In this document: positions 21,392 through 38,432 of the stretch, piece after piece | Layout of the letters: every line of letters begins with the position of its first letter | Position numbering within the stretch: the first letter of the stretch is position 1 | From: a virus | Virus record (IMG/VR): IMGVR_UViG_3300025778_000010 | Span: 1 to 64,000 of that record | Direction: 5' to 3' (one strand) | Length of the DNA stretch: 64,000 nt | The notes under the pieces: generated by a model | Told to the model about the DNA's origin: nothing | Databases searched by the model: none | The model's input: only the letters and a program-made list of their open reading frames with translations | Translations under genes and position numbers: made by a program

Positions 21392-21733
21392 TTAACTAAT
21401 ATTTTTTTCTTCTTTTGGAACAATTTTGACGTTCTGAAATTGTTGATTTTGTGGGTTTCCTGGGATTGTAAATTGAGGAGGAACCCCTTTGTCCCCATCA
21501 TTTATGTTATTAACATAGGGGGTTTCTATATGAGATTGTGGCATTACATTGGGAGATGCTGTTGAATTATGTGATACTAGACCGCCAGTTATAAACCCGC
21601 CAAATGTATACCAAAGGGTTGCTGCATCATGGGCAAAACCACGGCATGCCCACGGGATACCCGCTGATATCATGGCTATACCAAGCTGTTTAGCGTCCCC
21701 AATATTAAATTTAAAGTGATGATGTAGATTCAT
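21392..21733 (-). CDS. putative holin / small membrane protein
   Basis: two hydrophobic segments; overlaps the endolysin stop codon. Confidence 0.5.
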   Translation of the reverse strand: MNLHHHFKFNIGDAKQLGIAMISAGIPWACRGFAHDAATLWYTFGGFITGGLVSHNSTASPNVMPQSHIETPYVNNINDGDKGVPPQFTIPGNPQNQQFQNVKIVPKEEKNIS

Positions 21734-22590
21734 AATGATCCCTTTAAAGTATCATAAACTATTTGGGGTACTTGTCCTGCTTTTACTATAATACCCGCTT
21801 TTTTATCAAATATAACAAGTGCTGCCTGTGTTTGAGTATTCATTGTTCCCGTAGCATATTTTGCTACAAGTAAGCCTTTTTTAACTAAAGCTTTTTGAAC
21901 TGTTAATACTGCATCATTAGTTTGACCTAATGTAAAAGAATTTGATGTTGATGGAAATGGTGGAGCATAAAATGCAGTGGGTGTAGGTGTCGGAGTTGCT
22001 GTTGAATTATTAGCAGTGCCAGTATGTGACATTCCAAGTGCTCCTGCAACTCCTGTTCCAACAGTAGCAACTGTTGCCGTTGCTTTTTTACTTGTAGCAA
22101 TAGATTTTGTTGGTTGAACAGTTACTGGATATTTAGGTCTTACAATTGCCATAACATAAAGATATGGACGATGTTCCCTATAACATCCTCCGCCATTTGC
22201 AGCAGATTTTCCTGTTGAATCACTAGTATTAAAACCAATTGTAGTTAATCCATCGGCACTTGCTGCCTCAACAATTTCTACATGTTCTGCAACACCTGTT
22301 CCCCATGAAAAGAAAACAAGATCACCAGGTTGTGCTTGATATTTATTTACAACTAAGCCTTGACGTTGAAACCAATTTAATCCTGCAGGACAATATGCAA
22401 AACCTTTTTGAGTTTGAGCTGCAACAAGATTTGATAATCCAACTTGCCCAAAACACCAACTGATTCCCATTGCACAATAACTTGCGTTTGGAATGCCATA
22501 CCATATTCCGTATGGGTTTTCATTCATAGGTCCTTCAATAAAACCTATTTGACTTCTAGCAACATTTAATACATCAAGTGGCGTTGCCAT
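21730..22590 (-). CDS. endolysin: CHAP amidase + peptidoglycan-binding domain
   Basis: ARSQIG...YCAMGISW...GDLVFF...HVEIVE...GFNTS CHAP signature; C-terminal VLTVQKAL...G.M...TQAAL PG-binding motif. Confidence 0.85.
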   Translation of the reverse strand: MATPLDVLNVARSQIGFIEGPMNENPYGIWYGIPNASYCAMGISWCFGQVGLSNLVAAQTQKGFAYCPAGLNWFQRQGLVVNKYQAQPGDLVFFSWGTGVAEHVEIVEAASADGLTTIGFNTSDSTGKSAANGGGCYREHRPYLYVMAIVRPKYPVTVQPTKSIATSKKATATVATVGTGVAGALGMSHTGTANNSTATPTPTPTAFYAPPFPSTSNSFTLGQTNDAVLTVQKALVKKGLLVAKYATGTMNTQTQAALVIFDKKAGIIVKAGQVPQIVYDTLKGSL

Positions 22591-22593
22591 TTA

Positions 22594-24177
22594 TTAATCC
22601 TGTTGTCTTCCCTCTCCTTGTGGGTTACGTCCAGTACCCATCTTGTCAGGAGCATTTAATGTTCTATCTTGACTACGTGTTTTATTTCCACTTGCATCAG
22701 ATGCTGCATCTTGTGCTGCTTTAGGATTAATAATAAGCACTGCATCACCGCCTTCAAGCGGTGCCATGCCACGACGAGCACGAACTTCGTTAGGAGTAAT
22801 AACTTGATCCTTAAGATAACGATCATCAATGCGTGATTGTGTTTCTTCGTCTGTAAGTGCAAGTTCATTAAATCTAAGAACAAATGCGTCTGTAAATTCT
22901 TTAATAATCAAGTTAATCTTAAACTCAAGCTCTTCTTGACGTGGACGACATACTTGTTCTTTAAATGTTTTGTCAGCATCTTTAGCATTTGCCAAAGAAA
23001 CATTTGCAGGCATACCAAGCTTTGATACTGGTACACGGTGGGCCAAAAGAATACGGTCTCTATTTTCAATAGCATAGTTTTTAAATGAAGAATCTTGAAC
23101 TCCAGCTTCAATAGGTTTCATATCAAACTCTACACGACCTTGTTCACCATCAGATGGTAGAGGAATGTAAAGGGTTCTGTGATTTCTTCCACGCAGTCCT
23201 GTTTGGAAAAATTCAAGCAACTTACGCTCAGAATCAGCTGTAAGCTTTGCACCCTTTACAGTAATAATATAACGTGGTACCGCTTTATTTTCAAAGTAAT
23301 CTAAATTAAATCTTTGTGCAAATTCATCGCCTGCTACAGCATTTTTTGCTGCAAGGATATCTGGTACGCCATAATAGGTGTTTGATGGAGTAAATACTTT
23401 AAAATGAATTACTTCATTTGGCTGTGGATCTGTACCAATTTGATCAGGAGTTTCTGTGTCTCCAAAATTTCTAAAAAATGTATAACGGTTATAAACAACT
23501 TGTACAAAGCCATCACGGTGACGACGAATACGCATAGTGGTTGTAGGAATATGTCCAAGATAACCAATTTTTCCTGTTGATGTACGTCCTACTTCAAGAT
23601 AAGCATTTCCTGTTGACTCAAGATCAATAAAAACTTTTTTCATATTTTCAATAAATGAATCATCTGAGTTCATTGATTCAAGATAATTACGCAACTCTTC
23701 TTTTGCTTGCTCTAACTTGTTACGCAATTTATCAAGTTTTTTTGGGTTATCCATAACCTCTTCAATTTTAGATGTTGTGTTCCAAGTATTATCAAACTTG
23801 TACCCCAAACCAACCACGTTTGCTGCTTTAGCATTTACTGCAGAGTGATGATATGGAGATACATCATAAAGTTGTGCTAGATAAAGCATATTGTATGGAG
23901 GTTGAACAATTTGAAATAATGAATATCCTGTTAAATCTAATGGGTCAAGCTTTTTAGATTTAGCATCTTGAATACCAGTAAAGGATTTTTCTAGTCTTGA
24001 AGCATTTCTTCTAAAGTTTGCACTTAATCCTTCTGACTTTTTAATCTCTTCCCATGGCTGTGAAAATGGATCAGGAAATTCTTGTTCTCTTTTTCTAAAA
24101 ATGCCAAGATCAGCATCTGAGGTAATCTGTACCTCATCGCCTTCATCATCATTCATAATTGTTACATTGTGTTCCAT
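22594..24177 (-). CDS. portal protein
   Basis: 527 aa; DLESTGNAYLE, EVIHFK...YYGVPD, YFENKAVP, ITPNEVR motifs. Confidence 0.92.
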   Translation of the reverse strand: MEHNVTIMNDDEGDEVQITSDADLGIFRKREQEFPDPFSQPWEEIKKSEGLSANFRRNASRLEKSFTGIQDAKSKKLDPLDLTGYSLFQIVQPPYNMLYLAQLYDVSPYHHSAVNAKAANVVGLGYKFDNTWNTTSKIEEVMDNPKKLDKLRNKLEQAKEELRNYLESMNSDDSFIENMKKVFIDLESTGNAYLEVGRTSTGKIGYLGHIPTTTMRIRRHRDGFVQVVYNRYTFFRNFGDTETPDQIGTDPQPNEVIHFKVFTPSNTYYGVPDILAAKNAVAGDEFAQRFNLDYFENKAVPRYIITVKGAKLTADSERKLLEFFQTGLRGRNHRTLYIPLPSDGEQGRVEFDMKPIEAGVQDSSFKNYAIENRDRILLAHRVPVSKLGMPANVSLANAKDADKTFKEQVCRPRQEELEFKINLIIKEFTDAFVLRFNELALTDEETQSRIDDRYLKDQVITPNEVRARRGMAPLEGGDAVLIINPKAAQDAASDASGNKTRSQDRTLNAPDKMGTGRNPQGEGRQQD

Positions 24178-24178
24178 A

Positions 24179-24517
24179 TTAACCTAACTCCATCTCCCGC
24201 ATTTCTTTAACGTATTCCATCATTGCTGGTAAATCTTGAGGGTCTGGAACTAAACCTAATTCTGCCCGAGATTTTTGTTCTTCTAATTCTTCATCGGTAA
24301 CGGGTCTGTGACCAGAAAAGAACAGGGGCTGACCTTCATCTAAATCATATTCTTTTGCCGCTTTTTTTAATTTATTAATTTGCCTGATGTCTCCACGCAT
24401 TGAAGGAATGCTTAAATAAGCTCCTTCTTCGTCTCTTACAACAGAACCGTCTGGCATCTGCCAAACATACATGCCCCAATTAACTTCATCAACTGGTGTT
24501 ACTTTCATCTTACCCAT
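24179..24517 (-). CDS. conserved hypothetical protein upstream of the portal
   Basis: 112 aa; leaderless start 7 nt after TGGTATTAT. Confidence 0.7.
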   Translation of the reverse strand: MGKMKVTPVDEVNWGMYVWQMPDGSVVRDEEGAYLSIPSMRGDIRQINKLKKAAKEYDLDEGQPLFFSGHRPVTDEELEEQKSRAELGLVPDPQDLPAMMEYVKEMREMELG

Positions 24518-24584: not shown

Positions 24585-25313
24585 CTATCTATATCTTTTT
24601 GGTACCCAAAGATGCTTTTTATAATACCCAACAATGTATTTTTTCTTTCTTTCCATTGCCCAATGTGCACTTTGTTGCAGATCTTTGTTTACTTTACTTT
24701 CCCATTCAGCTCTTTTAACTGGAAGTACATGCATATATGGCGTACCCGCTGGGATTATCCCTTCAAAACCTTCTTTAATGTGAAATGTGACGTTTCCAGC
24801 ACCCCAGTATTGATCTGTATCCATAATTCCTGAAACTGTCGTAAAAGGTAAATCTGTTCGATTTAAGGGGTGTGTAAAAAGAGTAGACCAACCTTTTGGC
24901 GTTTTTACACCCCAATGCATATTCCAAGAAAAGTGTGCGTTGTAATGCCCTGGTGGTGTAGGATATTGTTCTACATGTCTAACAGCTAAAGGCGATAGCG
25001 TATCTGGCCTCCAAGTTAATTGTGGAATACCTCTGACATTTTTAACAACAATATCACACCAAGTTACATAATGGTAGCCACCTGTTAGTGCATCTAAATA
25101 AACCATGCAGTGTTTTAGAGATGCATTTACACTTTTATTATCTAATGGACCTAAAACAAGTTCATCTCCTCTATGATATTTTGGCATTTTTTTCCAAAAA
25201 TCAGGAACATTTTTAATTGCTGAAACAGGACCGTCAACTATCTGAAATACGTCTTCTGTCCAAGGATAGAATTCAATTAACTGTTTTTGATCTTTATTTT
25301 TTTTACCAAACAT
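24585..25313 (-). CDS. hypothetical protein (dUTPase-like beta-fold family common in aquatic phages)
   Basis: KHC...DALTGGY, W..KTPKGWSTLFTHPLNR..LPF...SGIMDTD, IPAGTP motifs. Confidence 0.55.
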   Translation of the reverse strand: MFGKKNKDQKQLIEFYPWTEDVFQIVDGPVSAIKNVPDFWKKMPKYHRGDELVLGPLDNKSVNASLKHCMVYLDALTGGYHYVTWCDIVVKNVRGIPQLTWRPDTLSPLAVRHVEQYPTPPGHYNAHFSWNMHWGVKTPKGWSTLFTHPLNRTDLPFTTVSGIMDTDQYWGAGNVTFHIKEGFEGIIPAGTPYMHVLPVKRAEWESKVNKDLQQSAHWAMERKKKYIVGYYKKHLWVPKRYR

Positions 25314-26322
25314 TATAACTTCTTTCTAAATCATAAATATGCCTTGCTCTAGTATATTCGGCTTTATCAGTTTTGGCAAATTGCTCCATTTGCTCATAAA
25401 ATAATTTATAATTAATTCCTGATACTTCTTCATAATCATCTAAATCTTGTTGAGATGGGGCACCCCATTTACCTAAAACTTTACCCGTCAAAAGATCTTT
25501 ATTTCTTAAAAGCCCTTCTATTGCAAGATGATAAAATGTTACGTTATTTTTATCTTTTACAGAAAGCATGTTTCTCCAGGAATTTTCAGGCATAGTTTTA
25601 TTATGCATGGCTCTTGTCCACATTGTGTCTTCTTTGATTGCAAAAAATTGATAACCTCTAGTCCAAGATCTCATAGCAGTTATATTTTCTTCATGGTATT
25701 TAATTTTTACATCAAAAGGAATTTCTTCAAGATACGTGCCTTTTGTAAAAAGAAAATTTGCTGCAATTAAATATTGCTCATGATAAAAAGTTTTAAAATT
25801 TATTTTTTGAGGATGTGGTGTTGGTAATCCAGTGTTGGCAAAAATATCTTCATTAATCTCTCTAAAAGTCATGCCCCAAGGTTCTATATCAGACATATCT
25901 TTTTTATCATCTTGATTTAAAATATTGCCAAAATCGTCTTTTGACCAAGTTGGTACAAGAGTTGTTATAATGGGTTTATAAAAAAGTTTATTTAATTCTT
26001 CATGCCTTTTAATAAGTATTGTATCCCAATTACTTTTAAATATTGTATGAGCATCTATTTGTAAATAGTAATCTTCGTCTTCATATAAAGACGCAACAAT
26101 TTTTCTTGATTGCCCAGTGCCTAATCCTATTGAATAATCTGATTTAACATATTTAACATTTGGATACATTGATATATCTGGAAAGTTGCCGTCAGTATAA
26201 TGTAACAATATTCCAAAATGAACATTTTCTGGGTACTTTGCATTACTTAAAGCTGTTGTAATTGTTAAATCAATATCTTCTTCATTATAAGCTGGAAAAC
26301 CAATAAAAATAGTTTTTTTCAT
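25303..26322 (-). CDS. glycosyltransferase, GT60/Skp1 hydroxyproline GlcNAc-transferase-like
   Basis: TIFIGFPAY...T...A..P; YYLQIDAHTIF..NWD; ANFLF; EE...AMRSWTRGY match the GlcNAc (PF11397-like) family pattern. Confidence 0.78.
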   Translation of the reverse strand: MKKTIFIGFPAYNEEDIDLTITTALSNAKYPENVHFGILLHYTDGNFPDISMYPNVKYVKSDYSIGLGTGQSRKIVASLYEDEDYYLQIDAHTIFKSNWDTILIKRHEELNKLFYKPIITTLVPTWSKDDFGNILNQDDKKDMSDIEPWGMTFREINEDIFANTGLPTPHPQKINFKTFYHEQYLIAANFLFTKGTYLEEIPFDVKIKYHEENITAMRSWTRGYQFFAIKEDTMWTRAMHNKTMPENSWRNMLSVKDKNNVTFYHLAIEGLLRNKDLLTGKVLGKWGAPSQQDLDDYEEVSGINYKLFYEQMEQFAKTDKAEYTRARHIYDLERSYNVW

Positions 26323-26331
26323 ATAAAAACC

Positions 26332-28539
26332 TTATTGTTTTGTTGGTGGTCGGTAATTATGAACTAAAATATCATCTGCGTAATAAAGGTGATCTGGGCC
26401 AGTTTCTAGTGTAACTACCATAGTCATCTTGCTGTCATAAGTTATAGTATTAATTGGTATAATGCTGTTATCTTGAAAAGACATTAAGTTATCTTTTACT
26501 TTTAAATCTTGTGCTTGTAAAAATTGCCACTCGCCATTTCTTTCTACAAATACATAATGTTCCCATGTTATTTTTAAAAATTCATTAATTGTATAATACC
26601 CCTGATTAATTCTATGCTTAACTGATTTAACAAATGTTGTAATTGGAACAATTCCTTCTAAAGTTTTTGTTGACCAAACAGACGCTGGTGACCAATCTTG
26701 TGGATCTTCAGTTTGAGGATAGTTTGGAATATAAGCAGTATCTAGCTCCATCCCAACTTTTAATCTTTCAATTTCAACAGAACTTCCATTAGAGAGTCTT
26801 ATCATTGTTCCATAAGCTAAACACCCTCCCCCTCCAACACCCACTCCAACACCAACACCCACTCCAACACCCACTCCAACACCAACACCCACTCCAACAC
26901 CCACTCCAACACCAACTGGTGGATTAAAGAAACAATAATATGGTGAGACACCCACTCCAACACCCACTCCAACACCAACTGGTGGATTAAAGAAACAATA
27001 ATATGGTGAGACACCCACTCCAACGCCCACTCCAACACCAACACCCACTCCAACGCCTACTGGCACTGGTATAACAGTTAATGTAGCAGCAGATAATAGC
27101 GGAACTTCTCCATCAAAAGCTTGAATTGCATATGTTCCATATGATGAAGGTGCAGTAAAAGATGCATTTAATGCACCAAAAATTGTTTGATTTACTCCAT
27201 TAACAGAAATATTTGTAAGTGGTTGGGGTCCACTAATATTTAGTGTAACTGTTCCATTTGGATATGCAGTATAAGAAGTTGAACCTATGCTATCTTGTTG
27301 TGCTGGGCTTACACCTACACCAACTCCTACGCCAACACCAACTGGTGAGACACCAACAGGGGCGGAAGCCGAATAAGAGTAATAGCTTACATTTACTGCT
27401 GTTCCACCTGTTACGACTGTTCCTGGATTAACTGATTGTGAAAAAACATATTGATCTTGACTTGAATTTGAAGTTGTTTGAGATGTTGTTGTTCCTAATA
27501 CTAAACCTACTTGAGTTAAAGCATTTTGAGCATTATTTAAAGTTAATCCCACAATATTTGGAACAGTAGCTGTTGGAGGTGTATAAATAATTAAAGTTAA
27601 AGTAATTGCTAAAATATTAATATAAGGGCCAGGTAGGGGTGATTGGCTTAATACATAACCACCTAAAGCATTGTATGGTTGATATTGTGATTGTGTAGAA
27701 GAAATTACAGATGTATAAACTGTAAGACCTAAAGATTGTAGTTGATTATAAGCAGTATTATAATCTAATGTTGTTACATTTGGTATTACAACTGTTGTGC
27801 CAGTTATTGTTAAAGTTGTTGGTTGTGAAGTAATTAAATTATTATTAACATCATAAGCGGTTACAGTAATGTTTGCTACCCCTGGCACGGTTGCTGCAAA
27901 ATTAGTCGTTCCTGTATAAGATATTGCAGTTTGTACATTTTTAGAAAAATCTTGAAAAAATATTTTATAATATGAAGCAGCATTAAATGTATTCCAAGAT
28001 ACTGTAACATTTAAACCCGAACCTTGCACTGCTACTGGATAAAGATAATATTGTGTTACAGAACTACCACTTGTGCCATACGATTGAGATATGAATTGAA
28101 CGGTAGACGGAGGAAGAGCAGTTTGTGCAATAAAAGGTGAAGTTTTATTTAAAGCAATATTAATATACTGACTAATATAAGCATCTGTAGTTGAAATTGA
28201 TGATTCTACAGAACTTGTAGATTGTGCTTGTGCTTGAACACTATTAATATCTTGCACATTAATTTGAGCAATAATAGAATTAGTTAAATAATTAAAACCT
28301 TGATTATAAAAACTATTTGCTTGTGTAGGGCTATTTGCTGACGAAATTAATGAAAAAAGATATTGTGCTTGTACAGCATTATTTAAAGAAATATTATAAG
28401 TATTTGTTTGATCAGGTATATTAGTTAATTGTGCTGCTGTACCAGGAACAAGGTTATTTGCTGAAATTACGCCATTAGATCTGGGATCATTTGTCGCATT
28501 ACCCGTTGCTGGGTATTGTGAAAAATCATTTACTGCCAC
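26332..28539 (-). CDS. virion appendage protein: two PASTA domains, (Gly-Val)n repeats, C-terminal Hint domain
   Basis: VIPNVTTL..AYNQLQSLGL..VLSQSPLPG and VPNIVGL..AQNALTQVGL..VFSQSVNPG = PASTA; GGGG|CLAYGT...ITWEH...ILVHN = Hint. Confidence 0.8.
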   Translation of the reverse strand: MAVNDFSQYPATGNATNDPRSNGVISANNLVPGTAAQLTNIPDQTNTYNISLNNAVQAQYLFSLISSANSPTQANSFYNQGFNYLTNSIIAQINVQDINSVQAQAQSTSSVESSISTTDAYISQYINIALNKTSPFIAQTALPPSTVQFISQSYGTSGSSVTQYYLYPVAVQGSGLNVTVSWNTFNAASYYKIFFQDFSKNVQTAISYTGTTNFAATVPGVANITVTAYDVNNNLITSQPTTLTITGTTVVIPNVTTLDYNTAYNQLQSLGLTVYTSVISSTQSQYQPYNALGGYVLSQSPLPGPYINILAITLTLIIYTPPTATVPNIVGLTLNNAQNALTQVGLVLGTTTSQTTSNSSQDQYVFSQSVNPGTVVTGGTAVNVSYYSYSASAPVGVSPVGVGVGVGVGVSPAQQDSIGSTSYTAYPNGTVTLNISGPQPLTNISVNGVNQTIFGALNASFTAPSSYGTYAIQAFDGEVPLLSAATLTVIPVPVGVGVGVGVGVGVGVGVSPYYCFFNPPVGVGVGVGVGVSPYYCFFNPPVGVGVGVGVGVGVGVGVGVGVGVGVGVGGGGCLAYGTMIRLSNGSSVEIERLKVGMELDTAYIPNYPQTEDPQDWSPASVWSTKTLEGIVPITTFVKSVKHRINQGYYTINEFLKITWEHYVFVERNGEWQFLQAQDLKVKDNLMSFQDNSIIPINTITYDSKMTMVVTLETGPDHLYYADDILVHNYRPPTKQ
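26356..26823 (-). other. Hint (intein-like/BIL) autoprocessing domain
   Basis: Cys1 (CLAYGTMI), block B TxxH (ITWEH), terminal HN followed by Tyr and only 7 residues. Confidence 0.8.
26830..27062 (-). repeat. tandem hexamer repeats encoding (GV)n, including a 63-bp unit duplication (VGVGVGVGVGVSPYYCFFNPP)
   Basis: ccaaca/cccact arrays; actggtggattaaagaaacaataatatggtgagaca recurs at 26915 and 26978. Confidence 0.95.
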
Positions 28540-28546
28540 GATACTA

Positions 28547-28873
28547 CTACGAATTCACTCCGCTAATAGTTACATTTAATCCATTTGTTATGTTAGCAAG
28601 ACTATACAAAGAGTCGCCTACATAGCAAACTAGCGATAAATTAAATGCAGAGGTTGTATTAGCTGGCACAACCACATTGCCGTATATTAAGTTTGAAAGA
28701 CTTCCAACTTGTTGCCCCGAAGGAATTAAATATAAACTAAAGTTTAAGTTACCATTAGTTACATTTGTAATAAGAATTTGTTTTACAATAGAATTAGAGC
28801 CAAATGTATAAAGGTTTGTTGGCTGTGTTGTTAAGGCCGTTGGCCCTACAAATCTGTTTAGCGAATATGCCAT
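28547..28873 (-). CDS. small virion structural protein (paralog of 33825..34142)
   Basis: RF.GP..L.T....LYT....IVKQI.I.N...ISGV pattern shared with 33825..34142. Confidence 0.6.
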   Translation of the reverse strand: MAYSLNRFVGPTALTTQPTNLYTFGSNSIVKQILITNVTNGNLNFSLYLIPSGQQVGSLSNLIYGNVVVPANTTSAFNLSLVCYVGDSLYSLANITNGLNVTISGVNS

Positions 28874-28876
28874 TTT

Positions 28877-29605
28877 TTACCCCGTAATAGACCATTTAGA
28901 AATCAATGTTTGCTCAAGTTGTAGAATTTCATAAGGTGTTAAAACACGGTTATACAGAAGAAATTCTCCTAAATTAAATTGACCGTATGATGTTAAATAA
29001 CGGCCTAAAGCTTGTCCACTCATACCAGATAAAGATCCGCCAGAAGAGGATTGTCCTACAACAACACCATTTCTTCTTACAATTCTTTGGTTATTTACGG
29101 TATTATAAGTAATTCCATAAATCTCTGGTTGTCCTGCAGATACTGTATTTACAACAGTCTGGGTATCATCCCCACCAAATACTAGTTTAAAAGTATTTGA
29201 AGCAGCATATCCAGCAGCTAGGTTGCTTCTTGTTGCTGCACCCTGACCACCAAAAACGTATGAAGGTGATGATGGAGTCTTTGTTGCAACAAAATAGATT
29301 GTAAATGAAGATGCATTTAAAAATGAAAGTGTTTGATCTGAAAATGTCATAAATGAAGAGGTTCCGTTAAATGCTACGGAAGGCAATCCATTAATAGATG
29401 AAGGAGTAAATACAGGTTGATTTGCTTGTGTTGCTTGAGTAAAATTTCTTCCATTTACAGAACGATCTTTCCAAACGCTTACGTATTGAGTTCCTCCTGA
29501 AGGAACTACAGTAATGTCTGTAGTAGCAGTAGCATCAAGCCAAATTTGTTGACCAAGAATCGTATAGCGGGACTTTCTAAAAATAGACCTTTGATTACTT
29601 AGCAT
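28877..29605 (-). CDS. LamG/concanavalin A-like lectin-fold virion protein
   Basis: WLDA...VSVWKDRSVNG...QAT..NQP...INGLPSVAFNG...GEFLLYNRVLT...KW. Confidence 0.75.
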   Translation of the reverse strand: MLSNQRSIFRKSRYTILGQQIWLDATATTDITVVPSGGTQYVSVWKDRSVNGRNFTQATQANQPVFTPSSINGLPSVAFNGTSSFMTFSDQTLSFLNASSFTIYFVATKTPSSPSYVFGGQGAATRSNLAAGYAASNTFKLVFGGDDTQTVVNTVSAGQPEIYGITYNTVNNQRIVRRNGVVVGQSSSGGSLSGMSGQALGRYLTSYGQFNLGEFLLYNRVLTPYEILQLEQTLISKWSITG

Positions 29606-29909
29606 TCTTCTTACCCCCGCTTAATAAAGCATCAGATTTAATTGAATCTGCATATTCAGTAGCTTCAGATTCTGTATAATCAACAACTTTAACTCCATAA
29701 ATTTTTGTATCTTTACCAATATAAGGATCACATGGAACAACTTTTTGCTTTGTTTCATCATGATCAAGAGTCATAATAACTTCTTGAGCATTTGCAAACT
29801 TTAACCATTCTGGATCTACTCCAGTTTGTGGAAAGCTTACATTTGGAAACACTTGGGCTAAGGTGCCAAATTTATCAATTTTTGCATCCTTAATAGTTGC
29901 GTATATCAT
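29595..29909 (-). CDS. fibre-associated small protein (resembles the N-half of 39350..39859)
   Basis: MIYA.I.D...VFPNVSFP...KQKVV pattern. Confidence 0.5.
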   Translation of the reverse strand: MIYATIKDAKIDKFGTLAQVFPNVSFPQTGVDPEWLKFANAQEVIMTLDHDETKQKVVPCDPYIGKDTKIYGVKVVDYTESEATEYADSIKSDALLSGGKKNAK

Positions 29910-29912
29910 TGA

Positions 29913-31448
29913 TTATCCGTTCGTCCAGTGCTCAGGAGAAATTAATCCTGGATAGTTAGTTGATGTATATCTTGTATCAAACATATAAAGTTGAGTTGGA
30001 GGACTTGTAAGTGCCATAGACGCACCATTTGCTATTGTATTTTGTGCCCAGTCCTTACCATTTAAATACCAGCCACCGACATCTTGAATCCAAAATCTTG
30101 AACCAACGTTACCGTCTGAGTTTTGATCTGCAGTATTAAACAAGAACTTATCTTGCTTAAATGGTGCAAGCTGTCCTCCACTACCCGTACCTTGATATTG
30201 TACTGTGTAGTAATATGCTGGGTTTGCAGTATTAGAAATAATACCAATCAAACCGCATCCATAGTAGTAGTATGGTGAATATGCTGCAACCCATTGATTA
30301 TCCCAAGTTTGAACGTGACGTTGGCCATACTGGCTACCTGAGTCAATTCCGTATGAGGTTGTTGTTCCCTGTGCGTTTAATGTTGTCATTGTTCCTGCAG
30401 TTCCTGCAGTTGTTACAACTGGAGCAAAATATCCGTAACGCATCTCGGTTGATGGTGTAAATCTTGACAAACCAACTTGTCCATTATCACAAGGAATAAC
30501 TGTCATGCGATAACGAGATTCTGTATAAGATGTTGAGTTGGTTGTTTGCCATTGAAAATCGTTATATGTGTAATAAACACCAGATGCGGTAGATAAAGGT
30601 GTACCAGCAGCTTTAGCTTCTGCCATAAAGTTATAAAGAACACCAGTAGGCAAGTTTGTGTCATATAAAGATCTGTTAGCATTTGTATTACGCCAAATAT
30701 GCATGCGGTAATTATTGTTATTATCTTTACCTTCAAGCATTACTAATGTGCGGGTTCTATCATTGTATCCAATTGATCCGTATCCATTACCGCCATACCA
30801 GGTGGCAAATAAGGAGTTGTTAATTGAATAGCCTTCATAGCCTGCCATTCCTCCAAATGGAAAAATATAAACGTTAGAATCAGATGTATACAAAGACCAT
30901 TTTTGTCTAATTCCTGATGCACCAATCATAACTCCAAAACGAGCATATGCACTTGCAAGTCCATCTTGTTGTTTTCCATAAGGTGCGTTGTTTCCAGCAT
31001 TAACCATACCTGGAACTGTTACTAACCAGTTTCCTTCTGCTTGATGGAATGGAGTTGCGTTAACCCAATAGTTTGTAACACCACCTGAACCAAAGTTTGA
31101 TGTTGTATAGTTTTGACCAGTGTACGCTTGACCAATTTCTGAGTTAGTTGTTAATGCTCCACCGTCAATAGGTTGCATATCATTGTCATAAATTGTGTAG
31201 CCAGGCGTGTTTTGGTAGTTAGAAAAATTTGCAAATGTTGGTAGTGGTTCTACCTGTGGCAATGACGATACTTGTGCTTGAACAGCTGCAAGGTTTGTAA
31301 TGGATGCACTAATACCTGAAGTTGTTGCAGATGAAGTTAAAATGCTAAGAATATTAGCATTTGTATTTAAAGCTGCAGTCATTTGTAGCTGTTGGTTTGT
31401 ATCTTGACCTGGTAGGTACAAAAATGTTGCACTTGATGAAATTGCCAT
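29913..31448 (-). CDS. aromatic-rich fibre/receptor-binding protein (paralog of 32315..33799)
   Basis: extensive identity with 32315..33799 (IGYN.RT.TLV.LE.KD.NNNYRMHIW; YYDFQWQ; ESRYRM; TTSYGID; YTSTNYP). Confidence 0.6.
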   Translation of the reverse strand: MAISSSATFLYLPGQDTNQQLQMTAALNTNANILSILTSSATTSGISASITNLAAVQAQVSSLPQVEPLPTFANFSNYQNTPGYTIYDNDMQPIDGGALTTNSEIGQAYTGQNYTTSNFGSGGVTNYWVNATPFHQAEGNWLVTVPGMVNAGNNAPYGKQQDGLASAYARFGVMIGASGIRQKWSLYTSDSNVYIFPFGGMAGYEGYSINNSLFATWYGGNGYGSIGYNDRTRTLVMLEGKDNNNNYRMHIWRNTNANRSLYDTNLPTGVLYNFMAEAKAAGTPLSTASGVYYTYNDFQWQTTNSTSYTESRYRMTVIPCDNGQVGLSRFTPSTEMRYGYFAPVVTTAGTAGTMTTLNAQGTTTSYGIDSGSQYGQRHVQTWDNQWVAAYSPYYYYGCGLIGIISNTANPAYYYTVQYQGTGSGGQLAPFKQDKFLFNTADQNSDGNVGSRFWIQDVGGWYLNGKDWAQNTIANGASMALTSPPTQLYMFDTRYTSTNYPGLISPEHWTNG

Positions 31449-31461
31449 TTTATTTAATCTC

Positions 31462-31911
31462 CTAGATTGTTAAATCAGCAAAGGCGTATCCGCCATATAC
31501 TGTTGTTCCACCATTTCTAGTGTAAAAGTTTAATACTGTTGTGTTAAGTGAAAGAACTGGTGCAGTATTTGAAGCTCCGCCACCGTCCCAAATAATTGAA
31601 GCAGGCCACGTGATCGTATATGAACCACCTGACTTAATTTCTACCTGCCAAAACTGACCGTTTGAAATACCGTTGTAAGTTGCTGGTGCAGTGTTTGAAA
31701 AAGCAATTGTAATATTACCTGCTGCAGTTAAAGAAAAAAGATTTGCTGTAGAAAGGTTTAATGTTGCAGTACCTGAAGATACTGTTCCAAGTGCCGTATA
31801 AGCAGATGGAATATTGTAATATCCATTACCCTGCCCATTTAAAGGTGCCTGAATATAAGTTGTTGTCCAAAGAGCTGGAACAATTGCATCAGGCGACATT
31901 GTAACGCCCAT
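31462..31911 (-). CDS. virion fibre adaptor-like protein (paralog of 39856..40257)
   Basis: LGT...LNLS..N.F...GGSYTITWP...P.L...GGTTVYG pattern. Confidence 0.55.
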   Translation of the reverse strand: MGVTMSPDAIVPALWTTTYIQAPLNGQGNGYYNIPSAYTALGTVSSGTATLNLSTANLFSLTAAGNITIAFSNTAPATYNGISNGQFWQVEIKSGGSYTITWPASIIWDGGGASNTAPVLSLNTTVLNFYTRNGGTTVYGGYAFADLTI

Positions 31912-31913
31912 TA

Positions 31914-32318
31914 TTATTTACCTCCTGCTACAGCTGCTGCTGGAGTTGCTGTAAATTCTGGTGTTAAAGTTGCAGCAAACTTATTATGCTCTGGGTCAAG
32001 AGATGGCTCAGCAAGTGTTGCTTCTGGAACTGGGTCTCCTGGTTTATGATCATCTGGTGCAACCCATCCTAGTGGTGGAGGTGGAGTTAATGGTGCTGGG
32101 TTTCCTTCATGATCTGTCCAATTAAGTGCTGTATGAATAGCATTAATGTGATCTTGAACTTGAACCTGCTCATCACTAATTCCGTTGTATTTGTCTACAA
32201 CTTTTCCATCTTTTAATTCAAAGCGATGTGGGAGAGAGGATTCAAAAGGTGCTTCGTACTCTCCCGACTCACTAAAGCTTCCCGCAAAGCCTTCGCCTGC
32301 AAAATGCATTTTTTTCAT
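31914..32318 (-). CDS. hypothetical Pro-rich protein
   Basis: start 32318 (MKKMHFAG), AGGAGA SD, ATGA overlap with the upstream stop. Confidence 0.6.
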   Translation of the reverse strand: MKKMHFAGEGFAGSFSESGEYEAPFESSLPHRFELKDGKVVDKYNGISDEQVQVQDHINAIHTALNWTDHEGNPAPLTPPPPLGWVAPDDHKPGDPVPEATLAEPSLDPEHNKFAATLTPEFTATPAAAVAGGK

Positions 32319-33799
32319 CGTATTTCTCCTCTTCTCCAGTGTGCTACTGGTACTAAGTGTGGATAGTTTGTGCTTGTATACCAAGTATCAAATAATCCGT
32401 ATTGTTGATTTGCTGTTAAGTTAATTGTTCCTCCATTGGTAATTGTACCACTTGTAACACGTCCGTAGGTTTTTGCACCTTCTGGATCAATTACATAAAG
32501 TCTCATACCAATGTTACCGTCTGAGTTTTCAATAGAACGGTTAAACATAAATTTGTTTGATTTAAATGGAACTAACTGCTGGCCATTACCAGTGTCGCCA
32601 TTTTGTCCAATAAAGTAATTACGTGGGTCACGGGAATCAATAAAATAAACATTCATTCCAGAACCGTAGTAGTAATATGCATTGTATGCTGCTACCCAGT
32701 TATTATCCCAAGTAATTTGATGACGCATACCGTATTTGTTTCCATTATCAATTCCATACGATGTTGTTAAAGAAATTGTGTTTAGCTGGGTTAAAGTTGA
32801 TGATGATGGTGTGTAGTAAGCATAAGCTGATACGTTTGAAGGCACCATTCTTGCAAGACCAACAATGTTGTTATCACCAGGAATAACACGCATACGATAA
32901 CGAGATTCGTTATAGTTTTGAGATGAGTTTGCTTGCCATTGGAAATCATAATAGTTGTAAGATCTTCCAGAACCACCAAGCTTTGCTTGTGAAAGGAAAA
33001 GATTTAAAGTTCCAACGTGATAATTTGCATCATTTAATGAAATAGAAGTGTTTACCCAAATGTGCATACGATAGTTATTGTTACCATCTTTTGCTTCAAG
33101 AGCAACAAGGGTAGAGGTTCTTTCATTATAACCAATCATTCCATAGGTTGTTCCGCCATACCAAGTAGAATAAGAACCGCTGTTAATACCAACTTGTTCC
33201 ATAAATCCAAAAGCACCTCTTGTAGCAACAGCTAAAGTAGTACCATTTAGGTAAAGAGAAATTTTTTGTCTTTTACCTGATGTTCCAACTACAACACCAT
33301 AGAAAGGCATATAAGATTCTTGAGCATCTGGGTTTTTATGATAATAGCCATAGTTAGCGTTTGAAATATTAAACATCCAATGGCCGTCTGCTTGGTTAAA
33401 TGGTGTTGCACCTGCCCAATAGCTTGTCCAGCCATTTGAACCAATATTACCATTTGTATAGTTGTTACCTGTCCAAGTTGAATGCATTTCTGCGTTTGTA
33501 TCATATTCTGCAGAACCAGAATATCTCATATTTGAATCCCAAATAGAAGCATATGGTTGGTTGTTAAAGTTTGAATATGTTCCAAAATATGGATAAGGTT
33601 CTGATGAAGGTAATGCTGAAAGGCTTGCACCAAGTGCAGCAATATTTGTATTTAATGTGGCAGGAGAACCAGCTAAAGCAAAGTTTGAGATAATCTGAGC
33701 AATTGTAGCATTGCTATTAATTGCAGCATTTAAATTTGCTTGTGCGTTGGCATCAATACCTGGTAATACGATTTGAAATGTACTATTAACTACAGCCAT
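32315..33799 (-). CDS. aromatic-rich fibre/receptor-binding protein (paralog of 29913..31448)
   Basis: 494 aa, Tyr/Asn/Gly-rich; see paralog. Confidence 0.6.
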   Translation of the reverse strand: MAVVNSTFQIVLPGIDANAQANLNAAINSNATIAQIISNFALAGSPATLNTNIAALGASLSALPSSEPYPYFGTYSNFNNQPYASIWDSNMRYSGSAEYDTNAEMHSTWTGNNYTNGNIGSNGWTSYWAGATPFNQADGHWMFNISNANYGYYHKNPDAQESYMPFYGVVVGTSGKRQKISLYLNGTTLAVATRGAFGFMEQVGINSGSYSTWYGGTTYGMIGYNERTSTLVALEAKDGNNNYRMHIWVNTSISLNDANYHVGTLNLFLSQAKLGGSGRSYNYYDFQWQANSSQNYNESRYRMRVIPGDNNIVGLARMVPSNVSAYAYYTPSSSTLTQLNTISLTTSYGIDNGNKYGMRHQITWDNNWVAAYNAYYYYGSGMNVYFIDSRDPRNYFIGQNGDTGNGQQLVPFKSNKFMFNRSIENSDGNIGMRLYVIDPEGAKTYGRVTSGTITNGGTINLTANQQYGLFDTWYTSTNYPHLVPVAHWRRGEIR

Positions 33800-33824
33800 T
33801 TATTTGTTCCCCTTTAAATTAAAA

Positions 33825-34142
33825 TCAAGATGATGTTACTTTTACACCAGAAACAAACACTGTTACTGATGAAGCTGCGGTAGCTGAAAGCTGAATTGAA
33901 TCTCCTGCATTCATTACCTGCTTAAAATCAAGGACCATAATCTGGCGAGGTGCTAGATCAAGATTCTGATAAAAACCAACGCCAGCAATAGACATTGTTG
34001 TCTGAAGTGCTCCGTTAGTTGAATTATTAATTGTTACAGATGTAATAACATCTGTTTCACCTGCTGGTACAGTATAAACTGTTCCGAGTGAAGTTCCGAG
34101 TGTTCCAGCATAAAATCTAGCTGGTAAGCTTACGACTGCCAT
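33825..34142 (-). CDS. small virion structural protein
   Basis: TVYTVPAG..DVITSVTINN...MNAGDSI...VFVSGV pattern. Confidence 0.6.
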   Translation of the reverse strand: MAVVSLPARFYAGTLGTSLGTVYTVPAGETDVITSVTINNSTNGALQTTMSIAGVGFYQNLDLAPRQIMVLDFKQVMNAGDSIQLSATAASSVTVFVSGVKVTSS

Positions 34143-34145
34143 TTT

Positions 34146-34478
34146 TTAAAATACCCCCATGTTTGCGTATAGTGTGTAATTTGAAACTGCGGTATTTACA
34201 TTTGAAATAGCTGCAGTACCTGCTGTATTAACAGCAGAAATTTGTGTTGCTCCCGCAGAGGTAACTGCGGTAATTTGACCAGTTCCCGCATTTTGTACAT
34301 TCAGGATTGATGTATTGGTAGCACCAAGTACATCATTAACGCCTAAAAGATTTCCTAATGATTCTAAAGATTTTGCAAGAAACACAATGTCTTGTGCTAC
34401 AAGCGTTGTACTTTGAAGAGCATCAATTTTTGATTTTACAATAGCTACTTCTGAGCCAAGTGTTGAATAGTCTGTCAT
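34146..34478 (-). CDS. coiled-coil fibre anchor protein (paralog of the N-terminus of 40257..40928)
   Basis: MTDYSTLGSE..KSKIDALQ..DIVFLAKSL..LGVNDVLGATN vs MTDYTSLGSE..QNRIDALQ..DILYLSEAL..LGVNDVVGATN. Confidence 0.6.
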   Translation of the reverse strand: MTDYSTLGSEVAIVKSKIDALQSTTLVAQDIVFLAKSLESLGNLLGVNDVLGATNTSILNVQNAGTGQITAVTSAGATQISAVNTAGTAAISNVNTAVSNYTLYANMGVF

Positions 34479-34568
34479 GTTTGGTCCACCTCTTTGATTA
34501 TTGTATCAGCAAATCTTAAAAAGTAATAATATATAGACCGCTAACTTCATTAATTATAGCATTAAATT

Positions 34569-35480
34569 CTATAAACCAGTAGTTAGGGTGTGGATAAAAC
34601 CAACCATTACTACTACTCCACAAATTGCAGCCAATGTCCTATAATAGTCTTTCCAAACCGCCCCAAAATACCTTTGCCCTAAAAGCATGCATTTATGGAG
34701 TGGTGACAACATATAGCCAGACCAGCCAATTGCAAACAAGACTGGCAAATAGGTGATGCCAAAAATTGATGCTGTAAGAGCCACAACTCCAGTAAATTTT
34801 TCGCTGCTTCCAAAGGCCCAGCTCATAAAAAATACTAAAAGAAGTATTGGGAACAACAGAACGTGCTTATCTGTATTAGCTAACAAATGATCAAAAAACC
34901 CTGAGTTATAATAAATTATATTGCCAATAATATCCAGAGCTAGTACAAAAAGTACTGTAAAAATTCCTTCTTTAAGATATTTGATTCCATCTAAATTTTG
35001 ACGTTCTCTATGGCCTCGAACAACAATATCTACATCTTCTTCTTTAACTACCCAAAAATCATAAACTAAACTACAAATAATTGCTGCTGTAAGAATTGGC
35101 CAAATACGTCCAAAAAAACTCCAATACCCAATATGTAATGCAGCCATAGGTAATATAACTGATGCTTCTAATGGGGACCAAAAATAAAAATGATGTGCAT
35201 TTAGATAATCAACAATAGCAAATTTTTTACGTTTATTTGGATCTTCTGGTGCAATAGTTCTTAGTACCCCGCCAGAAATAACTGTCCTACCGTTAATTGG
35301 CATTACAGCGGTAGTTGCAGAAGTTAATACCATGACCGCTCTTTTTGATTTAATTCTATTTGCTAACCAACCAAAAACTGGTTGAAAGACATCATATTTT
35401 GTAGCATAATATGAAAGTACAAGAACAAACGCTAATGCTGCAACATATTGCCAATCTGTTAATAAATAACTAAGTGTCAT
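34569..35480 (-). CDS. polytopic membrane protein, DUF401/ion-transporter superfamily-like
   Basis: about 9 hydrophobic segments; MPINGRT.IS, HHFYFWSPLE, GYMLSPLHKC motifs. Confidence 0.65.
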   Translation of the reverse strand: MTLSYLLTDWQYVAALAFVLVLSYYATKYDVFQPVFGWLANRIKSKRAVMVLTSATTAVMPINGRTVISGGVLRTIAPEDPNKRKKFAIVDYLNAHHFYFWSPLEASVILPMAALHIGYWSFFGRIWPILTAAIICSLVYDFWVVKEEDVDIVVRGHRERQNLDGIKYLKEGIFTVLFVLALDIIGNIIYYNSGFFDHLLANTDKHVLLFPILLLVFFMSWAFGSSEKFTGVVALTASIFGITYLPVLFAIGWSGYMLSPLHKCMLLGQRYFGAVWKDYYRTLAAICGVVVMVGFIHTLTTGL

Positions 35481-37120: not shown

Positions 37121-37681
37121 TTATAAATCTATCTTTGCTTCTTTTTCAGGGTACTTTTGAATACCAAAATTATAATGCATTAAATCAGATGTCTCTTCCA
37201 TATCTTTGCACTCGTCAATTCTTTCTTGCATACCTTTTTTTCTTGCATAAAGATCTTCTAAGGAAAGGTATCCCATTTCTGCTTTAAAAATATCTGGAGT
37301 ACCTAAAAACATGTAAAGTTTGTTATTATAATATTTATTTAACATACAATGCATGATAGCTTTTTCAAATAAATGAGCATTATATTTATCTTCTTCTGTA
37401 AGCGTATATCTTAATTTTTCGCCAACTTGCTCTAATTTATCTTTATCTGTTTGATCATATTGATTGGTGTCTGGCCTTACATTAAAATAACCTTTTCTAC
37501 GTCCAGCAAACTTATAAGCTAAAGCTACTTTTTCTGGAATCACCATGCACTCTGGCAGAGTATCTCTGTAAACAATAAATTCTTCTGTTCTTCCAATAAG
37601 AAAACCTGCATATTGACCAATTTCTTCAATAAAACCTTTTCTTTCATTTACTAAAGAATGCTCATAAATAAAATAAATCAT
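37121..37681 (-). CDS. hypothetical protein
   Basis: probable start 37681 (MIYFIYEH); tightly coupled between the coiled-coil and U32 genes. Confidence 0.65.
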   Translation of the reverse strand: MIYFIYEHSLVNERKGFIEEIGQYAGFLIGRTEEFIVYRDTLPECMVIPEKVALAYKFAGRRKGYFNVRPDTNQYDQTDKDKLEQVGEKLRYTLTEEDKYNAHLFEKAIMHCMLNKYYNNKLYMFLGTPDIFKAEMGYLSLEDLYARKKGMQERIDECKDMEETSDLMHYNFGIQKYPEKEAKIDL

Positions 37682-37682
37682 T

Positions 37683-38417: not shown

Positions 38418-38432
38418 TAATTTATCTTTCTT

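What the first reader, a model, noticed from the sequence alone, without database searches (positions are those of the whole stretch)
24585..28539. Candidate virion-decoration system: PASTA-(GV)n-Hint autoprocessing protein with a dedicated GT60-like glycosyltransferase
Seen: a 735-aa protein with two PASTA domains, long (Gly-Val)n tracts punctuated by SP and by an exactly duplicated SPYYCFFNPP peptide, then GGGG directly before a Hint domain (C1, TxxH, HN). The Hint is followed by Tyr, not Cys/Ser/Thr. The next genes are a Skp1-type GlcNAc transferase and a conserved beta-fold protein. Known: Hint domains lacking a +1 nucleophile cleave or trans-acylate instead of splicing (Hedgehog/BIL); PASTA domains bind peptidoglycan fragments; GT60 enzymes glycosylate Hyp/Ser/Thr in proteins. 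Inference: the Hint forms a Gly-thioester that is hydrolysed or ligated to another molecule, while the repeats are modified RiPP-style, giving a glycosylated cell-wall-binding appendage. (GV)n could form beta-sheet fibres.
Basis: partly seen in the sequence, partly recalled or inferred. Interest (0 to 1): 0.78.

Follow-up and report, generated by a model that had tools for sequence, protein, structure and literature searches.

The report
Phage fibre protein with self-cleaving cap
An uncultured lake-type phage, probably of Actinobacteria, encodes a cell-wall-binding fibre-like protein that ends in a self-cleaving (Hint) domain, followed by a sugar-transferase gene pair that travels with such repeat proteins in other phages, so the phage probably trims and decorates its own appendage, though no chemistry has been shown.

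Summary
Three tightly packed minus-strand genes encode: (1) a 735-aa protein with two PASTA domains, (Gly-Val)n tracts, two SPYYCFFNPP copies (a recent 63-bp tandem duplication), then GGGG|Cys and a 156-aa Hint domain with a 7-aa tail; (2) a PF11397 (GT60-like) glycosyltransferase; (3) a DUF6065-like protein with a dUTPase-like fold.

The Hint belongs to a large, unnamed metagenomic family. The Hint ends 1-15 aa from the C-terminus in 112 of the 151 matched proteins. Cys1 and His-Asn are almost invariant. The +1 residue is almost never Cys/Ser/Thr, and 107 of 112 tails hold a Lys. Its nearest solved relatives are bacterial intein-like (BIL) domains.

In viral contigs the closest Hint proteins all read binding domain, low-complexity repeat, Gly run, Hint. 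All 14 loci have either this glycosyltransferase or prolyl-hydroxylase-like oxygenases within 6 kb. Six of 25 glycosyltransferase clusters sit just downstream of an aromatic/Pro-repeat protein.

This supports self-processing and a tailoring link. The acceptor residue, the sugar and the fate of the thioester are unknown.

The scan already found the sister class (repeat-Hint plus hydroxylase arrays plus DUF6065) in at least eight other genomes. This window is the PASTA/(GV)n/glycosyltransferase variant.

The parts
26332..28539 (-). 735-aa fibre-cassette protein: N-terminal part, beta domain, 2 PASTA domains, repeat linker 1, Ig-like domain, repeat linker 2, Hint, 7-aa tail
27388..27792 (-). two PASTA domains (about residues 250-384)
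   Evidence: Pfam PF03793 E 1.6e-16, two stretches
27304..27366 (-). repeat linker 1 (APVGVSPVGVGVGVGVGVSP, residues 392-412)
27049..27303 (-). about 85-aa beta domain between the two repeat tracts (residues 413-497); a similar inter-repeat domain is seen in relatives P0002, L003 and L083
   Evidence: AlphaFold confidence low
26824..27048 (-). repeat linker 2: (GV)n with two SPYYCFFNPP motifs (26980-27009 and 26917-26946), ending in GGGG
26356..26823 (-). Hint (BIL-type) domain, C573 to N728; T658xxH661, H727-N728
26335..26355 (-). 7-aa tail YRPPTKQ after the Hint; holds the Lys that 107 of 112 family tails carry
25303..26322 (-). PF11397 (GT60-like) glycosyltransferase, invariant D90-x-H92, no membrane segment evident
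24585..25313 (-). DUF6065-like protein, dUTPase-like fold, invariant Cys69; conserved partner of the glycosyltransferase

Best explanation
The 735-aa gene closes the phage's fibre-gene block and encodes an accessory appendage protein. Two PASTA domains and Ig-like domains bind the host cell wall (inferred). They are followed by a flexible low-complexity spacer and a C-terminal BIL-type Hint domain that removes itself. Inferred chemistry: an N-to-S acyl shift at Gly572-Cys573 gives a thioester, and cyclisation of Asn728 cuts off the 7-aa tail. The thioester is then resolved by water, by an amine of the released tail (alpha-amine or Lys734), or by another amine. The mature protein therefore ends at or just after the GGGG run, without the 156-aa Hint. 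The next two genes, a GT60-like glycosyltransferase and a dUTPase-fold DUF6065-like protein, are translationally coupled to it and form a conserved pair. They most likely modify this repeat-bearing protein in the cytoplasm before assembly. Shown: domain identities, family-wide conservation of the catalytic residues, and gene linkage. Inferred: cleavage, its product, glycosylation, and presence in the virion.
For: Hint identity and type. The Hint ends within 15 aa of the C-terminus in 112 of 151 matched proteins. Cys1 is present in 86 of 89, Gly at -1 in 46 of 89, and terminal HN in 111 of 112. No tail has length 0, and Lys is in 107 of 112 tails against a 3.5% background. The invariant Asn, together with a tail that is always present, argues that the C-terminal cut is used, as in A-type BIL domains (PMC7765530). 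Context: the gene lies between fibre-like genes and the portal. N-terminal parts of the family are fn3, PASTA, PKD, BACON and collagen. The same C-terminal Hint ends 'virion structural'/'tail fibre' proteins of jumbo phages NCTB, Erwinia Alexandravirus and Yersinia fHe-Yen9-02. Tailoring link: the glycosyltransferase-DUF6065 pair is adjacent in 11 viral loci, and the gene directly upstream is a repeat protein ending in Hint or in a Cys-rich tail. Distant glycosyltransferase homologues (27-34% identity) also lie 0.5-1.5 kb downstream of (PPVFT)n, (FPPY)n or (FFPP)n proteins. All 14 loci of the closest Hint subfamily have this glycosyltransferase (5 loci) or PF13640 oxygenases (9 loci) within 6 kb, together with APS kinase, cupin, methyltransferase and DUF6065 genes. 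Precedent: capsid and tail-tube subunits of mycobacteriophages are glycosylated (Freeman 2023, as cited in PMC12619734).
Against: No experiment exists for any member. The window's own Hint is below Pfam cut-offs. Nineteen of 25 glycosyltransferase clusters have no repeat protein nearby, so the family is not restricted to such substrates. The window's tracts are mostly Gly-Val, with few residues that could accept a sugar. The N-terminal part has no detectable similarity to neighbouring fibre genes, and its model is unreliable (pLDDT below 50), so attachment to the virion is assumed. Part of the synteny comes from close relatives: L003 and L086 share the portal neighbourhood.
Confidence: 0.6

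Rival explanations
1. The Hint self-processing is real, but the glycosyltransferase and the DUF6065-like protein act on something else: another virion protein such as capsid or tail tube, the host cell envelope, or nucleotides/DNA. On this reading they sit here only because the slot between fibre genes and portal collects accessory late genes.
For: Nineteen of 25 glycosyltransferase clusters lack a nearby repeat protein. PHROGs files the glycosyltransferase family under 'moron/auxiliary/host takeover'. DUF6065 has a dUTPase-like fold and a motif resembling dUTPase motif III, which would suit nucleotide chemistry. DUF6065-like genes occur in haloarchaeal viruses apart from any such repeat gene. 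Known mycobacteriophage glycosylation targets capsid and tail tube (PMC12619734).
Against: The pair follows a repeat protein in several unrelated neighbourhoods where the portal is not adjacent (L005, L007, L010, L008, L009, L016, L017). This also holds for glycosyltransferases only 27-34% identical. The three genes are translationally coupled. PF11397 is a protein-glycosylating family, not a DNA one.
Confidence: 0.22
2. The thioester is not simply hydrolysed but used for ligation. The fibre's C-terminal Gly is joined by an isopeptide or peptide bond to an amine. That amine is either the conserved Lys or the alpha-amine of its own tail (a minimal splice), a Lys of another virion protein, or a free amine of the peptidoglycan that the PASTA domains bind.
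For: Lys is present in 107 of 112 tails and at +2 in 46 of 106, against a 3.5% background. The nearest solved relatives include Tetrahymena BIL2, which links its N-flank to Lys side chains, and a Clostridium BIL domain (PMC8616854). A-type BIL domains cleave both ends without a +1 nucleophile (PMC7765530). A flexible poly-Gly run precedes Cys1 in many members.
Against: No product has been observed. Lys may serve solubility or folding only. In a thiol-rich cytoplasm hydrolysis or thiolysis is the default fate. The window's Lys is at +6, not +2.
Confidence: 0.15
3. The Hint is an inactive or selfish intein remnant with no role for the phage.
For: Its own Pfam scores are below the cut-offs. Inteins are common in phage genes.
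Against: There is no homing endonuclease, no conserved host protein interrupted and no C-extein. The catalytic Cys, TxxH and HN are kept across hundreds of diverged representatives attached to unrelated N-terminal parts.
Confidence: 0.03

Closest known systems
Bacterial intein-like (BIL) domains, A-type (Amitai 2003 and Dassa 2004, as reviewed in PMC7765530; structures 2lwy, 6y75/6tmm)
   Same: Cys1, TxxH and C-terminal His-Asn are present. The +1 residue is non-nucleophilic. They occur in variable, non-conserved surface-type proteins. They are the best sequence-profile and fold matches.
   Different: Here the domain is always at the very C-terminus, with only a 1-15-aa Lys-bearing tail. It follows a low-complexity repeat and a Gly run, in phage fibre-module proteins. 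No activity data exist.
Hedgehog/Hog C-terminal autoprocessing domain
   Same: It is C-terminal, has a Gly|Cys junction, and releases the N-terminal part through a thioester. 1at0 is a fold match at E 5e-6.
   Different: There is no sterol-recognition region after the Hint. The intein-type terminal His-Asn is retained.
Self-cleaving C-terminal intramolecular chaperone domains of phage tail fibres and spikes (Peptidase_S74 type; own knowledge)
   Same: The logic is the same: a C-terminal domain of a fibre protein that is removed after folding or assembly.
   Different: The fold and chemistry are unrelated (Ser-Lys protease versus Hint thioester). No chaperone role is shown here.
Skp1 prolyl-hydroxylase/Gnt1 (GT60) pathway, and chlorovirus PBCV-1 prolyl 4-hydroxylase acting on viral Pro-rich repeats (own knowledge; the Skp1 pathway appears in PMC3515798)
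   Same: Both use a cytoplasmic PF11397-type transferase. In sister loci, Pro-rich repeats sit beside PF13640 hydroxylase-like genes.
   Different: No hydroxylase is adjacent in this window. The target is a repeat tract, not a single Pro. Neither sugar nor acceptor is known.
Mycobacteriophage virion glycosylation (Freeman et al. 2023, cited in PMC12619734)
   Same: An actinobacterial phage with glycosyltransferase genes beside structural genes, implying glycosylated virion proteins.
   Different: The glycosyltransferase family and the target are different: an accessory repeat-Hint protein rather than capsid or tail-tube C-termini. Nothing is shown experimentally here.
Cyanophage Syn9 dioxygenase array with a 'dUTPase-fold protein with a conserved cysteine' (Iyer et al. 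2010, PMC2938197)
   Same: The DUF6065-like protein here has a dUTPase-like fold and an invariant Cys. In sister loci it sits among 2OG oxygenases.
   Different: That paper proposed secondary-metabolite synthesis. Here the partner is a glycosyltransferase and the neighbour is a repeat-bearing fibre-module protein.

Membership tests
HINT superfamily, BIL type | N-terminal nucleophile (Cys1) | tested here: met
   C573 follows GGGG. Cys is the first residue in 86 of 89 family members with a full N-terminal match.
HINT superfamily, BIL type | Block B Thr-x-x-His | tested here: met
   T658 and H661 are invariant in A4 and A6.
HINT superfamily, BIL type | C-terminal His-Asn (A-type BIL and inteins) | tested here: met
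   H727-N728 in the window. HN is present in 111 of 112 members.
HINT superfamily, BIL type | Hint fold | tested here: met
   Model residues 571-731 have pLDDT 75-90. Foldseek gives 2lwy at E 5e-9, TM 0.81, then 6y75 and inteins.
HINT superfamily, BIL type | Score over a curated Pfam cut-off | tested here: not met
   The window's domain scores PF14890 16 bits (cut-off 35.8) and PF14623 15.9 bits (cut-off 27). Family members do reach PT-HINT, Intein_splicing and Hint at E down to 6e-11, and a family profile hits solved BIL domains at E 4e-10.
HINT superfamily, BIL type | Autocatalytic cleavage | not testable with these tools
   Needs expression and mass spectrometry.
Splicing intein | Cys/Ser/Thr at +1 and a real C-extein of a conserved host protein | tested here: not met
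   +1 is Tyr and only 7 residues follow. Across the family +1 is C/S/T in 5 of 112 and tails are 1-15 aa.
Hedgehog/Hog domain | Sterol-recognition region after the Hint | tested here: not met
   The protein ends 7 aa after the Hint.
PF11397 / GT60-like glycosyltransferase | Score over Pfam gathering cut-off | tested here: met
   81.7 bits against 21, covering profile positions 98-284 of 352. All 31 homologues found carry PF11397.
PF11397 / GT60-like glycosyltransferase | Metal-binding Asp-x-His/Asp motif of GT-A enzymes | tested here: met
   D90 and H92 are invariant in 20 homologues. That this is the catalytic motif rests on general knowledge of GT-A enzymes.
PF11397 / GT60-like glycosyltransferase | Transfer of GlcNAc to hydroxyproline, Ser or Thr of a protein | not testable with these tools
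   No solved sequence relative exists. An enzyme assay is needed.
DUF6065 (PF19541) | Pfam match | tested here: inconclusive
   The window protein itself has no Pfam hit at E<=0.01. Fifteen of 36 aligned homologues match PF19541, and the window protein matches phrog_7084 at E 3.6e-30.
dUTPase/dCTP deaminase superfamily | Fold | tested here: met
   The top 11 VIA hits are all dUTPases, Z 8.4-9.6 over 112-126 residues. Unrelated chains score at most 3.4.
dUTPase/dCTP deaminase superfamily | The five dUTPase sequence motifs, including the C-terminal Gly-rich motif V | tested here: inconclusive
   Only a motif-III-like 'SGI.DTD.Y' and a few others can be read in A2. No motif V is evident, and no residue-level structural alignment was available.
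PASTA domain | Score over Pfam cut-off | tested here: met
   60.5 bits against 23.2, two copies.

The most novel reading that the evidence does not exclude
The C-terminal Hint is a ligation device, not a disposable cap. Its Gly-thioester is captured by an amine, so the fibre becomes covalently joined through its last Gly. The amine could be the near-universal Lys of its own short tail (a branched mini-splice), another virion protein, or a free amine of the peptidoglycan held by the PASTA domains (covalent, irreversible adsorption). The glycosyltransferase/DUF6065 pair, or hydroxylase arrays in sister phages, turns the preceding repeat into an extensin-like modified rod.
Probability: 0.1. Interest if true: 0.9.

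Novelty: new variant of a known kind. Interest (0 to 1): 0.62.

Why it matters
Three points would matter if this is true.

First, it would define a widespread class of phage appendage proteins that mature by Hint (thioester) chemistry. The library holds 615 representatives at 50% identity. That chemistry is known from inteins, Hedgehog and BIL domains but, as far as I could find, has not been described for virion fibres.

Second, it gives candidate substrates to phage glycosyltransferases, to the very abundant 2OG oxygenases of aquatic phages that have no known function, and to DUF6065.

Third, self-activating C-terminal thioesters next to modular binding domains are of practical interest for protein ligation.

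The claims are cheap to test by expression and mass spectrometry.

Tried and rejected
1. DNA-level search of the region against GenBank phages found no match.
2. Pfam on the Hint alone gave only sub-threshold hits. Single-sequence search against PDB gave E 0.7-1.2.
3. The whole-protein word-based search was swamped by repeat words and gave one hit only.
5. A glycosyltransferase single-sequence locus search found nothing. The wide Hint alignment was too diverse for pattern search. Narrower alignments worked.
6. I tested whether the 242-aa protein is the missing prolyl hydroxylase and rejected this. It has a dUTPase-like fold, and only one conserved His is present in the alignment.
7. The glycosyltransferase profile has no sequence relative in the PDB.
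8. The N-terminal 260 aa and the mid domain show no significant similarity to other window proteins.
9. The full-length AlphaFold model was uninformative outside the Hint: mean pLDDT 42.9 from an 8-row alignment.
10. The narrow Hint subfamily was not found in 185,579 species-representative prokaryote genomes by pattern scan. This is weak evidence only, because the scan depends on two motifs.
11. No promoter or terminator signal separates the three genes, and overall counts are not above shuffles.
12. Literature searches found no paper on DUF6065 or on Hint-capped phage fibres.
13. PMC10527164 (Freeman 2023) is not held and is cited second-hand.


Full report
**What is there**

The window is part of a 108,356-bp IMG/VR virus record that CheckV rates complete. 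It has about 35% G+C. Its late genes all lie on the minus strand: portal, prohead protease/scaffold, capsid and large fibre-like proteins. The genome carries a WhiB gene, which points to an actinobacterial host.

The finding covers three genes:
- 26332-28539, 735 aa
- 25303-26322, 339 aa
- 24585-25313, 242 aa

The first two are 9 nt apart and the last two overlap by 11 nt. No promoter or terminator signal lies between them. The block sits between a run of fibre-type genes (28547-40928) and a small conserved gene followed by the portal (22594-24517).

**The 735-aa protein**

Pfam finds two PASTA domains (60.5 bits). After them comes APVGVSPVGVGVGVGVGVSP, then an ~85-aa beta domain. A 75-aa tract follows, made of Gly-Val dipeptides and holding two SPYYCFFNPP motifs. 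The tract ends in GGGG directly before Cys573.

The duplicated motif reflects a 63-bp tandem DNA repeat at 98% match, so the duplication is recent. The motif itself is older. Two relatives, a 1070-aa metagenomic protein and viral contig L003, are 46% identical to the window's protein in their best-matching segments. They carry (VSPVG)n in place of (GV)n and have two or three Y-Y-C-[FY] motifs.

**The Hint domain**

On its own the last 163 aa score below Pfam's cut-offs. An exhaustive phmmer search of 1.84 billion representatives found 615 relatives at E<=1e-3 and 64 at E<=1e-10.

Of the 151 proteins with a match in the local re-scoring:
- 112 have the Hint ending 1-15 residues before the stop, and never 0 residues.
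- The first Hint residue is Cys in 86 of 89.
- The residue before it is Gly in 46 of 89.
- The domain ends in His-Asn in 111 of 112.
- The next residue is Cys, Ser or Thr in only 5 of 112.

Members of the family reach PT-HINT, Intein_splicing, Hint and Hint_2 in Pfam. A 15-row profile hits solved BIL domains (6y75, 6tmm, 2lwy) at E 4e-10 to 6e-10, with inteins weaker. The full-length AlphaFold model is poor overall but confident for residues 571-731. Foldseek places that part on the Clostridium BIL domain 2lwy (E 5e-9, TM 0.81), then on Tetrahymena BIL2, inteins and Hedgehog.

This is therefore a genuine Hint of the bacterial intein-like kind. It sits at the very end of the protein and has no C-extein to splice to.

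One feature I have not seen described: the short tail almost always holds a Lys. Lys occurs in 107 of 112 tails and at +2 in 46 of 106, against 3.5% Lys overall. The window's tail is YRPPTKQ.

The invariant terminal Asn, and the fact that a tail is always present, suggest that the C-terminal cut by Asn cyclisation is used as well as the N-terminal thioester. This is what has been reported for A-type BIL domains (PMC7765530).

**What these proteins are**

The parts in front of the Hint are unrelated to one another. They are typical surface-binding modules: fn3 in 14 of 75 members, PASTA in 6, plus PKD, BACON, Ig and collagen.

In GenBank, the same cap ends proteins annotated 'virion structural protein', 'tail fiber protein' or 'intein domain protein'. 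These lie in the fibre clusters of phage NCTB, 19 Erwinia phage records and a Yersinia jumbo phage, again after a Gly run.

The closest subfamily gave 14 IMG/VR loci. Every one reads: binding domain(s), low-complexity repeat, Gly run, Cys-Hint, short tail. The repeat is (VSPVG)n, (IIATPV)n, (YNNPPP)n, (YYAAP)n or (PPYVP)n. They follow tail-fibre-like genes. The narrow subfamily was not found in species-representative prokaryote genomes by a pattern scan, which is weak evidence. Cluster members come only from metagenomes and are unnamed.

**The two downstream genes**

The 339-aa protein matches PF11397 (81.7 bits) and a PHROG glycosyltransferase family. Twenty homologues keep an invariant Asp-x-His.

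The 242-aa protein matches phrog_7084, and 15 of 36 homologues match DUF6065. Its AlphaFold model (pLDDT 92) has a dUTPase-like fold. The top 11 VIA matches are all dUTPases at Z 8.4-9.6, dCTP deaminases score 6-7, and unrelated chains score at most 3.4. It keeps an invariant Cys and an 'SGI.DTD.Y' stretch that resembles dUTPase motif III.

It is therefore not the hydroxylase that a Skp1-like pathway would need. Iyer et al. [quoted passage not shown] That protein matches what I see here.

**Linkage**

Among 79 viral loci holding a glycosyltransferase homologue, the glycosyltransferase and the DUF6065-like gene are adjacent in 11. In those loci the gene just upstream is a repeat protein that ends in one of two ways:

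| Ending | Loci | Repeat |
|---|---|---|
| GGG\|Cys-Hint | L003, L005, L007, L010 | (VSPVG)n in L003; Tyr-Tyr-Ala-Pro type in the others |
| Short Cys-rich tail | L006, L008, L009, L016, L017, L024 | (YYAPPV)n or (YYAAPQ)n, some behind a PASTA-like domain |

In most of these the portal is not adjacent, so this is not just shared synteny of close kin.

Glycosyltransferases only 27-34% identical to the window's also lie 0.5-1.5 kb downstream of (PPVFT)n, (FPPY)n or (FFPP)n proteins. After clustering at 60% identity, 6 of 25 glycosyltransferase clusters show this arrangement. Such repeats occur in about 2% of all ORFs in the same loci, shadow frames included.

From the other side, all 14 Hint-subfamily loci have candidate protein-tailoring genes within 6 kb. 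Five have this glycosyltransferase. Nine have PF13640 (prolyl-hydroxylase-type) oxygenases, often as the very next gene. Cupin/JmjC, APS kinase, methyltransferase and DUF6065 genes accompany them.

In the window's own genome the single PF13640 gene lies far away, at 103920-104174, behind a giant fn3 protein. In relative L088 the protein at that position carries (VSPVG)n-Hint.

**Reading**

The best-supported account has three parts:
1. It is a fibre-module appendage protein that binds the host wall through PASTA and Ig-like domains.
2. It carries a flexible spacer. (VSPVG)n and (GV)n are close in composition to elastin's VPGVG repeat; this comparison is my own.
3. It sheds a C-terminal BIL-type Hint, while a coupled enzyme pair tailors it in the cytoplasm.

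What remains open:
- The fate of the thioester: water, its own tail, or a foreign amine. The BIL2 precedent for Lys isopeptides is in PMC8616854.
- The acceptor residue. Pro is the only residue common to all glycosyltransferase-linked repeats, but most such loci have no hydroxylase nearby, and Tyr or Ser are possible in some.
- The sugar.
- The role of the dUTPase-fold partner.
- Whether the protein is in the virion at all.

**Relation to earlier scan results**

A word search of the scan's notes, made after my own analysis, returned eight earlier findings on other genomes that describe the sister arrangement: FN3-(Pro/Phe repeat)-Hint, followed by prolyl-hydroxylase-like arrays and DUF6065. 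My results agree with them.

One note states that hydroxylases accompany only Pro-Pro repeats. In my small set L083 (IIATPV) and L088 (VSPVG) also have such oxygenases, so that rule is not strict.

This window differs from the earlier cases in four ways. It has PASTA domains instead of FN3, and a mostly Gly-Val spacer. A GT60-like transferase takes the place of the hydroxylase array. The glycosyltransferase also links to repeat proteins that end in Cys-rich tails rather than Hint.

**Verdict**

Every component is of a known kind, but I found no description of this combination in the literature. I class it as a new variant of a known kind. It is of moderate to high interest and is testable by expression and mass spectrometry.

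Noticed in passing
Hint family tails (e.g. window 26335-26355; proteins P0005-P0153): The 1-15-aa tail after the terminal His-Asn holds a Lys in 107 of 112 family members, and Lys is at +2 in 46 of 106, against a 3.5% Lys background. No member ends exactly at the Asn.
   Followed up: partly
L006, L008, L009, L016, L017, L024, L053, L054, L058 (ORFs upstream of the glycosyltransferase): A second class of glycosyltransferase-linked repeat proteins has no Hint. After (YYAPPV)n, (FPPY)n or (FFPP)n these end in a 25-60-aa tail with 4 to about 10 Cys, as if a disulfide knot replaces the Hint cap.
   Followed up: partly
L083:6429-8989 and L084:2399-4245: An APS-kinase-like gene (PF01583, E 4e-17 in L084) lies directly after Tyr/Pro-repeat Hint genes. 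Beside it is an unassigned gene whose N-terminus reads like a sulfotransferase PAPS loop. This hints at sulfation in some members. The second gene had no Pfam hit.
   Followed up: partly
G000:C1:103920-108356 (locus L099): The genome's only PF13640 oxygenase follows an fn3-rich structural protein of about 1000 aa or more (its ORF runs off the record end). The downstream gene order matches L088, where the structural protein ends in (VSPVG)n-Hint.
   Followed up: partly
window 21730-22590 (-): A CHAP-domain endolysin-like gene (286 aa) sits between the portal and the prohead protease/scaffold genes, which is an unusual place for a lysin. L003 also has a lysin-like gene right after its portal.
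   Followed up: no
L007:7768-8040, L008:5673-5981, L010:7741-8037, L017:5712-5987: A small conserved protein of about 90-100 aa with CxxC...CxxC motifs (zinc-ribbon-like) accompanies the glycosyltransferase/DUF6065 pair in several loci. It lies before the pair in some loci and after it in others. I did not look for it in the window.
   Followed up: no
L001 (phage NCTB, LT598654.1 96419-103678): Three separate genes of one fibre cluster each end in this Hint cap. One of them is only 153 aa and is essentially a Hint alone.
   Followed up: no
window 26817-27053 (-): A 78-aa alternative-frame ORF (LEWV repeats) is only the shadow of the Gly-Val repeat DNA and is not a gene.
   Followed up: yes
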